The notes beneath the pieces were generated by a model. The model was not told the origin of the DNA, did not search any database, and saw nothing but the letters and a program-made list of their open reading frames with translations. From IMG/VR virus record IMGVR_UViG_2718217868_000003: DNA of 24,502 bases; one strand, written 5' to 3'. The stretch is from a virus (Duplodnaviria > Heunggongvirae > Uroviricota > Caudoviricetes). Below are positions 8,194 to 8,776 of the stretch, one piece after another (within the stretch, counting starts at the first letter, position 1; every line of letters starts with the position of its first letter). Both the position numbers and the translations under genes were made by a program.

Positions 8194-8284
8194 TTTCATA
8201 TTGGCGAGGTAACGGTAGTTAAGTAGAATGGCTGCGGGTGCTTGAGGCTATCTGCCTCGGGCATGAACACCAAAGGCAGATAGA

Positions 8285-8356
8285 GAAAAGCCCCAGTTAA
8301 CATTACGCGTCCTGCAAGACGCTTAACATTAATCTGAGGCCAATTTCATGCTAGAC
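8285..8356 (-). ncRNA. Candidate Sok-like antisense RNA of the hok locus
   Basis: Minus-strand promoter-like TTGCCT (plus 8386-8391) -17 bp- TAACCT (plus 8363-8368); the transcript would be antisense to the mok start/hok leader. Ends are approximate. Confidence 0.35.
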
Positions 8357-8404
8357 ACATGTAGGTTAGCCTCTTACGTGCCGAAAGGCAAGGAGAAGCA
8401 GGCT

Positions 8405-8560
8405 ATGCAGCAGCAAAAGGCGATGTTAATCGCCCTGATCGTCATCTGTTTAACCGTCATAGTGACGGCACTGGTAACGAGGAAAGACCTCTGCGAGGTA
8501 CGAATCCGAACCGGCCAGACGGAGGTCGCTGTCTTCACAGCTTACGAACCTGAGGAGTAA
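8405..8560 (+). CDS. hokD: Hok/Gef family type I toxin
   Basis: 51 aa MQQQKAMLIALIVICLTVIVTALVTRKDLCEVRIRTGQTEVAVFTAYEPEE, matching HokD/RelF as I recall it. In-frame upstream ATG at 8348 occupies the mok position. Leader hairpin CTATCTGCC (8248-8256) / GGCAGATAG (8275-8283). Confidence 0.85.
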   Translation: MQQQKAMLIALIVICLTVIVTALVTRKDLCEVRIRTGQTEVAVFTAYEPEE

Positions 8561-8630
8561 GAGACCCGGCGAGGGAGAAATCCCTCGCCACCTCTGATGT
8601 GGCAGGCATCCTCAACGCACCCGCACTTAA

Positions 8631-8655
8631 CCCGCTTCGGCGGGTTTTTGTTTTT
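8631..8655 (+). terminator. Rho-independent terminator after hokD
   Basis: CCCGC-TTCG-GCGGG stem-loop followed by TTTTTGTTTTT. Confidence 0.6.
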
Positions 8656-8776
8656 ATTTTCAACGCGTTTGAAGTTCTGGACGGTGCCGGAATAGAATCA
8701 AAAATACTTAAGTAGCGCGCAGGGATAAGAGGGATGGTCCCTTAAAGGGGAGAGCTAATTATCCGGAAGGATTCTG

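What the first reader, a model, noticed from the sequence alone, without database searches (positions are those of the whole stretch)
8231..8660. hok locus appears regulatory-complete (leader hairpin, in-frame mok-position ATG, 5'-3' complementarity, antisense promoter)
Upstream of hokD is a leader closely resembling the plasmid R1 hok mRNA 5' region (GCTTGAGGCTATCTGCCTC versus my recollection of R1), with a 9-bp stem CTATCTGCC/GGCAGATAG (8248-8283). 5' TGCGGGTGC (8233-8241) is complementary to 3' GCACCCGCA (8617-8625) just before the terminator, as for fbi/tac pairing. On the minus strand, TTGCCT-17-TAACCT would drive a Sok-like antisense across the ATG at 8348. That ATG is in frame with hok, unlike canonical out-of-frame mok.
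Basis: partly seen in the sequence, partly recalled or inferred. Interest (0 to 1): 0.5.

Follow-up and report, generated by a model that had tools for sequence, protein, structure and literature searches.

The report
Complete prophage hok/mok/sok toxin–antitoxin locus
This is an intact copy of the well-known hok/mok/sok RNA-controlled toxin–antitoxin module, carried by a Qin-like lambdoid prophage of E. coli, nearly identical to the already annotated and tested hokW/mokW/sokW locus of Shiga-toxin phage 933W, so it is ordinary.

Summary
The locus (about 8201-8655) is a regulatory-complete hok/mok/sok type I toxin-antitoxin module.

- **Leader:** it matches Rfam RF01794 at 116.5 bits (gathering score 59).
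- **Full-length mRNA:** the 417-nt transcript folds with its 5' end (GGGUGCUUGAGG) paired to a 3' fbi element (CCUCAA-C-GCACCC, 8610-8622).
- **Family support:** that pairing, the alternative tac/ucb and mok-SD/dcb pairings, and a 5' metastable hairpin hold in 37 hok loci from several genera, with compensatory changes.
- **Antisense gene:** the promoter TTGCCT-17-TAACCT is positionally homologous to the promoters of annotated sokC and sokW. It predicts a 71-77-nt Sok RNA (8356 to 8286/8280, minus strand).

None of this is new. The locus is 93.8% identical to hokW/mokW/sokW of phage 933W/Sp5. That locus is annotated with a 70-codon in-frame mok, and Takada et al. 2021 showed it to be a working type I TA. 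The in-frame mok is also the annotated arrangement of K-12 mokC/hokC; only R1 and hokB are out of frame.

K-12 hokD is the rearranged form: relBE replaces everything upstream of 8391. The intact form occurs in 3883 of 5426 complete E. coli genomes.

Verdict: already known, low interest.

The parts
8201..8229 (+). hok mRNA promoter: -35 TTGGCG (8201-8206), 17-nt spacer, -10 TAGAAT (8224-8229). Predicted transcript start about 8236.
   Evidence: Promoter scan. The -10 hexamer keeps a fixed distance from GCGGGTG in loci whose upstream sequence is otherwise divergent. The Rfam match starts at 8236.
8236..8655 (+). Full-length hok mRNA, about 417-420 nt.
   Evidence: Fold energy -174.3 kcal/mol, z-score -8.8, with the 5' and 3' ends paired. 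Terminator at 8629-8646 followed by a T run.
8236..8247 (+). tac element (GGGUGCUUGAGG). It has three mutually exclusive partners: the local hairpin, fbi and ucb.
   Evidence: Family alignment A3 column 4 pairs with column 430 as U-A in 24 sequences and C-G in 10.
8242..8260 (+). 5' metastable hairpin: UUGAGGC (8242-8248) pairs with GCCUCGG (8254-8260).
   Evidence: Folds of 5' fragments of the transcript. 95.4% of cells are paired across 37 loci, against 27-59% when partners are slid.
8248..8283 (+). Leader stem CUAUCUGCCU (8248-8257) with AGGCAGAUAG (8274-8283).
   Evidence: Helix 2: 92.2% paired, 3 pairs changed on both sides.
8288..8294 (+). ucb (AAGCCCC). It pairs with the mok SD in the closed form and with tac in the processed form.
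   Evidence: Rfam structure.; these pairs are invariant, so they show no covariation either way.
8336..8340 (+). mok Shine-Dalgarno sequence, GAGGC.
   Evidence: It lies 8 nt upstream of the ATG at 8348. It pairs with ucb or with dcb.
8348..8560 (+). mok ORF, 70 codons, in frame with hok and sharing its stop codon.
   Evidence: Same architecture as annotated mokW and mokC.
8341..8357 (+). Sok target region, complementary to the single-stranded 5' tail of Sok. The target hairpin loop CUAGACA (8351-8357) carries a YUNR-type CUAG.
   Evidence: Rfam structure and Sok fold. This is the most variable segment within the hokD/hokW clade.
8369..8373 (+). dcb (GCCUC), which pairs with the mok SD in the processed form.
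   Evidence: the pairs are invariant across all 37 loci.
8363..8391 (-). Sok promoter: -35 TTGCCT (8391-8386), 17-nt spacer, -10 TAACCT (8368-8363).
   Evidence: Read from the sequence. Identical hexamers in 933W sokW. Same position as TTGCGC-17-TATCCT in R1. The generic scan did not pick it up.
8280..8356 (-). Predicted Sok antisense RNA. The 5' end is at 8356. The 3' end is at 8286 by the sokW annotation, or at 8280 by alignment to sokC.
   Evidence: K-12 sokC aligns to 8356->8280. The 933W sokW annotation maps to 8356->8286. Fold: 16-nt single-stranded tail plus long hairpin, -28.7 kcal/mol, z-score -4.6.
8305..8322 (.). Clade-specific 18-nt insertion (ACGCGTCCTGCAAGACGC) that lengthens the Sok hairpin, which is also the ucb/SD hairpin on the mRNA strand.
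   Evidence: Absent in hokC and R1; present in the hokD/hokW clade, including Kluyvera.
8405..8560 (+). hok (hokD-type) toxin gene, 51 aa, with SD AAGGAG at 8390-8395.
   Evidence: Pfam PF01848 at 81.6 bits. Annotated hokD in an identical genome.
8610..8622 (+). fbi element, CCUCAA-C-GCACCC.
8629..8655 (+). Intrinsic terminator: AACCCGC-TTCG-GCGGGTT followed by a T run.

Best explanation
The region is an intact hok/mok/sok type I toxin-antitoxin module. It is the unrearranged form of the K-12 hokD locus and an allele of hokW/mokW/sokW of phage 933W/Sp5, and it sits in the early-right region of a Qin-like lambdoid prophage.

The mechanism below is inferred from the R1 paradigm. The sequence and structure elements are shown here; the dynamics are not.

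1. A weak promoter (8201-8229) makes a stable mRNA of about 417 nt.
2. While the mRNA is being made, the 5' tac element is held in a local metastable hairpin.
3. In the finished RNA, tac pairs with fbi near the 3' end, and ucb sequesters the mok Shine-Dalgarno sequence. The RNA then neither translates nor binds Sok.
4. Slow 3' trimming removes fbi. tac switches to ucb, and the mok SD pairs with dcb. This forms the Sok-target hairpin and opens mok.
5. Ribosomes starting at the mok ATG (8348) read through the hok start and allow Hok synthesis.
6. A short-lived antisense RNA of 71-77 nt, made from TTGCCT-17-TAACCT on the minus strand, pairs through its single-stranded 5' tail with the mok start region. 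It blocks mok and therefore hok, and marks the duplex for RNase III.
7. When Sok transcription stops (prophage induction or loss, or transcription shut-off), Sok decays first and Hok depolarises the inner membrane.
For: Sequence and family membership:
- Rfam RF01794 at 116.5 bits on the + strand, 8236-8407. Controls give 118.3 (K-12 hokC), 113.5 (933W hokW), 109.7 (K-12 hokB) and 88.9 (R1 type), and no hit in the K-12 relBE-hokD region.
- Hok/Gef domain at 81.6 bits.
- 93.8% DNA identity to annotated mokW/hokW/sokW of 933W, with identical Sok promoter hexamers.

Structure:
- The full-length fold closes the 5' end on fbi, z-score -8.8.
- tac/fbi duplexes lie 45-56 nt after the stop codon in 37 loci, with GGGUGC/GCACCC changing to GGGCGC/GCGCCC.
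- The closed structure is 83.5% paired across the family, against 38-45% for slid controls. The processed (Rfam) structure is 77.4%, against 37-46%.
- The metastable hairpin is 95.4% paired.
- The Sok fold has a 16-nt free tail plus a hairpin and U-rich tail.

Published evidence:
- For hokW-sokW, a sokW promoter mutation unmasks toxicity, sokW is detected by Northern blot and is lost after mitomycin C, and HokW goes to the inner membrane (PMC8621323).
- The tac/fbi/ucb/dcb model is described in PMC9841398.
Against: - No transcript data exist for this allele.
- The Sok -10 (TAACCT) matches only 3 of 6 consensus positions and fails the generic promoter scan.
- The tac/ucb and SD/dcb pairs are invariant in the family alignment, so they are neither supported nor contradicted by covariation.
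- Natural chromosomal hokA, hokB and hokC loci were reported not to mediate post-segregational killing or rifampicin activation (bioRxiv 10.1101/2025.08.07.668861, citing Pedersen & Gerdes 1999). Sequence completeness therefore does not prove activity.
- This allele has Gln instead of Lys at Hok residue 2; the effect is untested.
Confidence: 0.88

Rival explanations
1. The locus is sequence-complete but physiologically silent. It is transcribed and kept repressed, but never activated to a killing level, as reported for natural chromosomal hokA/hokB/hokC loci.
For: Chromosomal hok loci tested by Pedersen & Gerdes did not give post-segregational killing or rifampicin activation (as summarised). 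It is a single-copy chromosomal gene. Hok carries a K2Q substitution.
Against: The 93.8%-identical hokW-sokW locus is active from a single-copy prophage. All RNA elements are conserved in thousands of genomes and in viable phages such as mEp460 and HannyBb, which argues for purifying selection.
Confidence: 0.15
2. The in-frame ATG at 8348 is not a coupling leader (mok) but the start of a longer 70-aa Hok isoform that is itself the active or regulatory protein. Alternatively, hok is translated independently of it.
For: The ORF is in frame and shares the stop codon, so any ribosome starting at 8348 makes an N-terminally extended Hok. The extension peptide (MLxxxRLASYxPKGKE) is conserved across genera.
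Against: That conservation coincides with overlapping RNA and promoter elements (dcb, Sok -10 and -35, hok SD), so it need not reflect selection on the protein. Some clade members have a stop codon or lack the ATG in this frame (L014, L018, L026). The R1 and hokB versions use another frame with an unrelated peptide. This fits a role for the act of translation rather than for the peptide.
Confidence: 0.1
3. The resemblance is a decayed remnant or a chance match, without antisense regulation.
For: None beyond the weak -10 consensus of the Sok promoter.
Against: Rfam E = 3e-26. No frameshifts or stop codons. All elements are collinear with annotated loci. Covariation supports the structure.
Confidence: 0.01

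Closest known systems
hokW/mokW/sokW of Stx2 phage 933W and Sakai prophage Sp5 (AF125520; Takada et al. 2021, PMC8621323)
   Same: 93.8% DNA identity from the -10 of the hok promoter to fbi (window 8217-8632). Same 70-codon in-frame mok, 51-aa Hok, identical Sok promoter hexamers, the same 18-nt extended Sok hairpin, and a lambdoid prophage setting.
   Different: 6 of 19 bases differ in the Sok-tail/target segment (8340-8358). There are five Hok residue differences (K2Q, V45T, D46A, S49P, K51E). The terminator and flanking genes differ.
E. coli K-12 hokD (relF) in the relBEF operon of the Qin prophage
   Same: 99.3% identical from 8391 to 8680, covering the hok SD, CDS, fbi and terminator. Same downstream genes: rem, ydfU, ydfT, cspF/cspB.
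   Different: K-12 lacks everything upstream of 8391, where relBE sits instead: the hok promoter, tac, ucb, mok start, Sok target and the Sok gene. There is no Rfam hit there. The K-12-type junction occurs in 1167 of 5426 genomes, against 3883 with the intact form.
E. coli K-12 hokC/mokC/sokC (gef)
   Same: In-frame mok with the same 57-nt offset and a shared stop codon. The annotated 59-nt sokC aligns end to end with the predicted Sok here. The leader is closely similar.
   Different: No 18-nt insertion. In K-12 the 3' end, including fbi, is cut off by IS186.
hok/mok/sok (parB) of plasmid R1
   Same: The Sok promoter is in the same position.
   Different: mok is out of frame (58-nt offset) and encodes an unrelated peptide. 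The leader has a different internal hairpin insertion. The Hok protein is only distantly similar: published identity between HokW and R1 Hok is 44%. It sits on a plasmid and has a post-segregational killing role.

Membership tests
[quoted passage not shown] | Hok/Gef-family small membrane toxin | tested here: met
   PF01848 at 81.6 bits against a cut-off of 22. One residue different from K-12 HokD.
[quoted passage not shown] | Structured 5' leader matching the curated covariance model (Rfam RF01794, which is built in hok-mRNA orientation) | tested here: met
   116.5 bits against a gathering score of 59, covering the full model 1-157. Positive and negative controls behave as expected.
[quoted passage not shown] | Long-range 5'-3' pairing (tac/fbi) closing the full-length mRNA | tested here: met
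   12 bp with one bulge in the minimum-free-energy fold. Same position in 37 loci with U-A to C-G compensation, 91.7% paired. 12 of 2000 shuffles do as well.
[quoted passage not shown] | Alternative pairings tac/ucb and mok-SD/dcb (processed form), and ucb/mok-SD (closed form) | tested here: met
   All are present in the window. The pairs are invariant across 37 loci, so the support is conservation, not covariation.
[quoted passage not shown] | 5' metastable hairpin sequestering tac during transcription | tested here: met
   Folds of 27- and 40-nt 5' fragments form it. 95.4% paired across the family, with GU/GC/AU variation at one pair.
[quoted passage not shown] | Overlapping mok reading frame, with its own SD, whose start region is the Sok target | tested here: met
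   GAGG, 8 nt, then the ATG at 8348; a 70-codon ORF. It is the only + strand ORF starting between the leader and hok.
[quoted passage not shown] | cis-encoded antisense Sok gene: promoter inside mok, single-stranded 5' tail, terminator hairpin | tested here: met
   Met at the sequence level only. Transcription itself could not be tested.
[quoted passage not shown] | Sok RNA actually made, unstable, and repressing hok; 3' processing activates the mRNA; Hok kills | not testable with these tools
   Shown only for the 93.8%-identical hokW-sokW (PMC8621323) and for R1 (PMC9841398).

The most novel reading that the evidence does not exclude
This allele could be a specificity variant of hokW/sokW. 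Within the hokD/hokW clade the loci are otherwise 90-99% identical, yet the 15 bases forming the Sok 5' tail and its target (8341-8355) are by far the most variable segment. Mean pairwise difference there is 0.42, against 0.09 overall.

This would mean diversifying selection for mutually orthogonal Sok/hok pairs. Each co-resident lambdoid prophage (up to 10 copies per genome) would then sense only its own induction or loss.

The module would also act as the conserved right-hand flank of a cargo slot that here holds a retron Ec67-type defence gene.
Probability: 0.35. Interest if true: 0.3.

Novelty: already known. Interest (0 to 1): 0.08.

Why it matters
It matters little as a discovery. It does show what the ancestral, unrearranged hokD locus looks like, and that the K-12 reference (relBE-hokD) is the derived, minority form. 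It also shows that automatic annotation marks only the hok CDS and leaves mok and sok unlabelled. The locus is a clean natural example in which all three alternative tac pairings can be read from one sequence and checked against 37 relatives.

Tried and rejected
- **Generic sigma-70 scan:** it did not recover the Sok promoter, so I relied on positional homology to annotated sokC and sokW.
rejected as the functional register. TGC lies upstream of the predicted start, and the extra GCA is not conserved outside the clade (3' context; alignment).
- **Another frame for the real mok, as in R1:** rejected, because no other + strand ORF of at least 20 aa starts between 8300 and 8405.
- **Pedersen & Gerdes 1999 and Steif & Meyer 2012:** neither is held in the library. 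Their conclusions are cited only through papers that quote them.
- **Truncated mRNA (8236-8609):** the minimum-free-energy fold did not cleanly reproduce the published open form, although the centroid shows tac/ucb. I therefore tested the Rfam structure on the family alignment instead.
- **One malformed literature query** returned an error.

Full report
**What is in the sequence**

The window is 100% identical over this region to the chromosome of E. coli strain H6. The region lies in a Qin-like lambdoid prophage. The gene order is integrase, excisionase, a DUF977 gene, a retron Ec67-family reverse transcriptase, hokD, rem, ydfU, ydfT, cspF/cspB, lysis genes and cspI.

- the leader string GCTTGAGGCTATCTGCCTC
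- the stem CTATCTGCC/GGCAGATAG
- the 9-nt complement TGCGGGTGC/GCACCCGCA
- TTGCCT-17-TAACCT on the minus strand
- an ATG at 8348, which is 57 nt upstream of the hok ATG at 8405 and in frame with it

**More than chance**

- Rfam RF01794 is named "sok" but is built in the orientation of the hok mRNA leader. It matches 8236-8407 on the + strand at 116.5 bits (gathering score 59, E = 3e-26, full model length).
- The same model scores 118.3 on K-12 hokC, 113.5 on phage 933W hokW, 109.7 on K-12 hokB and 88.9 on an R1-type plasmid locus. It finds nothing in the K-12 relBE-hokD region.
- The encoded 51-aa protein matches Pfam Hok/Gef at 81.6 bits.
- My recalled R1 hok sequence was 100% identical to many plasmid hok loci. 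The quoted leader stretch differs from it at 1 of 19 bases.

**Anatomy**

A promoter-like site, TTGGCG-17-TAGAAT (8201-8229), and an intrinsic terminator (8629-8646 plus a T run) bracket the locus. The -10 hexamer keeps its distance from GCGGGTG even in relatives whose upstream DNA is unrelated. The transcript start is therefore near 8236, which is where the Rfam match begins.

The 417-nt RNA (8236-8652) folds at -174.3 kcal/mol, with a z-score of -8.8 against shuffles. Its first 12 bases (GGGUGCUUGAGG) pair with CCUCAA-C-GCACCC at 8610-8622. This is the tac/fbi end-pairing of the R1 model (PMC9841398).

The pairing actually continues inward. The duplex scores -21.5 kcal/mol, against -14.2 +/- 2.2 for shuffled 3' UTRs; 12 of 2000 shuffles did as well.

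In the closed fold, GCCCCAG (8290-8296) pairs with CUGAGGC (8334-8340), hiding the mok Shine-Dalgarno sequence. In the Rfam structure:
- GGG-GCUU (8236-8243) pairs with AAGC-CCC (8288-8294), which is tac/ucb.
- GAGGC (8336-8340) pairs with GCCUC (8369-8373), which is SD/dcb.
- Together these make a hairpin with the loop CUAGACA just after the mok ATG.

Short 5' fragments of the transcript fold tac into a local hairpin, 8242-8248 with 8254-8260.

On the minus strand, the RNA predicted from TTGCCT-17-TAACCT has a 16-nt unpaired 5' tail complementary to the mok start region. A long hairpin and CUUUU follow (-28.7 kcal/mol, z-score -4.6).

**Family evidence**

A scan of one genome per species, using the 70-aa Mok-Hok sequence as query, returned 61 loci.

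In 37 non-redundant loci from Escherichia, Kluyvera, Citrobacter, Photorhabdus, Pantoea, Erwinia and others, the first 13 bases find their best 3' partner at the same place, 45-56 nt after the stop codon. The changes are matched: GGGUGC/GCACCC, GGGCGC/GCGCCC, and GAGAC with UCUC.

Results on the alignment of these RNAs (A3):

| Structure | Cells paired | Slid controls |
|---|---|---|
| Closed (full-length) | 83.5% | 38-45% |
| Processed (Rfam) | 77.4% | 37-46% |
| 5' metastable hairpin | 95.4% | 27-59% |

- In the closed structure, 45 pairs changed on both sides. The tac/fbi helix is 91.7% paired, with one position U-A in 24 sequences and C-G in 10.
- In the processed structure, the tac/ucb and SD/dcb pairs are invariant. 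They are conserved but uninformative for covariation.

**The in-frame mok is normal**

| Locus | mok-to-hok offset | Frame |
|---|---|---|
| This window | 57 nt | in frame |
| K-12 mokC/hokC | 57 nt, shared stop codon | in frame |
| 933W mokW/hokW | 57 nt, shared stop codon (213-nt and 156-nt CDS) | in frame |
| R1 mok/hok | 58 nt | out of frame |
| K-12 mokB/hokB | 58 nt | out of frame |

The in-frame extension (MLxxxRLASYxPKGKE...M) is present in most of the hokC/hokD-type loci recovered, including Photorhabdus.

**What it is, relative to known loci**

- *K-12 hokD.* It matches the window at 99.3%, but only from 8391 onward. Upstream of that point K-12 has relE. This is the "genetic rearrangement" that the literature gives as the reason hokD is inactive in K-12 (PMC7232551 and PMC12214031, citing Pedersen & Gerdes 1999).
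- *Frequency of the two forms.* The intact form covers at least 80% of 8190-8680 in 3883 of 5426 complete E. coli genomes. The K-12-type relE-hokD junction is in 1167.
- *Viable phages.* The same locus occurs in lambdoid phages: mEp460 and HannyBb at 99%, and Stx phages at 90-94%.
- *Phage 933W.* It is annotated with mokW, hokW and a 71-nt sokW antisense RNA. The window is 93.8% identical to it from the hok -10 to fbi, with identical Sok promoter hexamers.
- *Predicted Sok ends.* The sokW annotation maps to 8356->8286. The K-12 sokC RNA (59 nt) aligns to 8356->8280, the difference being an 18-nt insertion (8305-8322) that lengthens the hairpin.

**Function**

This part is inferred, not shown here. 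For hokW-sokW in Sakai prophage Sp5, Takada et al. showed that:
- HokW is toxic.
- Mutating the sokW -10 unmasks toxicity, and sokW supplied in trans restores growth.
- sokW RNA is detected by Northern blot and vanishes after mitomycin C.
- HokW then appears in the inner membrane in a RecA-dependent way.
- Deleting the locus halves phage release.

By homology, the most likely role of the window's locus is the same: an R1-type RNA switch that fires when Sok transcription ceases. One caution applies. Natural chromosomal hokA/B/C loci were reported not to give post-segregational killing. Activity of this allele, which also carries Gln instead of Lys at Hok residue 2, remains to be shown.

**Verdict**

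The system is already known, annotated in phage 933W and experimentally characterised. Interest is low.

The only mildly new points are side observations. The Sok-tail/target segment (8341-8355) is the variability hotspot of the clade, at 0.42 against 0.09 overall. The locus also flanks a variable cargo slot and a conserved, unannotated 30-aa ORF.

Noticed in passing
window 8101-8193 (+): Unannotated 30-aa hydrophobic ORF (MVLVLKCALAITAVMAIYCLAIVLMDRLSD) with a GTG start and a strong SD (AGGAGG, 8094-8099). It ends 8 nt before the hok -35. The ORF is kept in SE11, EC45, O55:H7 and E. ruysiae copies, with mostly synonymous or conservative changes. It has no Pfam or NCBIfam match. The surrounding spacer (about 7911-8200) is in about 1573 of 5426 E. 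coli genomes.
   Followed up: partly
window 5555-7910; loci L067, L068, L069, L002: The slot between the DUF977 gene and the spacer plus hokD holds different cargo in different prophages. Here it is a retron Ec67-family RT/endonuclease (6008-7843; NF038237 at 738.8 bits). SE11 has DUF262 plus a TPR protein, O55:H7 and EC45 have other hypotheticals, and K-12 has relBE. This looks like a defence/moron hotspot. The retron's msr/msd RNA, expected upstream of the RT, was not looked for.
   Followed up: partly
window 8341-8355: Within 14 hokD/hokW-type loci that are otherwise 90-99% identical, this segment (the Sok 5' tail and its target) has a mean pairwise difference of 0.418, against 0.089 overall. 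This fits diversification of antisense specificity between paralogous copies.
   Followed up: partly
window 8538-8552: The Tyr47 codon TAC (8543-8545) sits in a CUUACGAAC loop closed by CAG/CUG. This resembles the TadA A-to-I editing context reported for hokC/D/E, where Tyr becomes Cys (PMC12214031). The closing stem covaries across the family: C-G in 19 sequences and U-A in 16 at one pair, G-C in 22 and A-U in 9 at the next.
   Followed up: partly
window 8408: Hok codon 2 is CAG (Gln). K-12 HokD, HokW and nearly all clade members have AAG (Lys). Only four genomes were 100% identical to the window over 8190-8680.
   Followed up: no
window 11705-12097, 14596-15012, 20965-21163: Rfam hits outside the finding: two cspA-type thermoregulator leaders, upstream of the cspB- and cspI-like genes, and the IS009 sRNA.
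   Followed up: no
loci L009, L013, L040, L052, L055; phage hit H145: Near-identical (91-97% protein identity) E. coli-type hok loci sit on contigs labelled Veillonella parvula MAG, Xanthomonas pisi, Acinetobacter idrijaensis, Candidatus Scatousia and Haemophilus MAGs, most of them short, and in an 'Actinobacillus phage' record. These are most likely contamination or mis-binning rather than true hosts.
   Followed up: no
locus L007, about 50-130 nt into the 345-nt stretch upstream of tac: A different hokD-type copy is preceded by another short hydrophobic ORF (MTWPEAFTTVGIAMAVALVVYSICRWG) followed by a terminator-like hairpin. Small membrane-protein genes may recur next to these hok loci.
   Followed up: no
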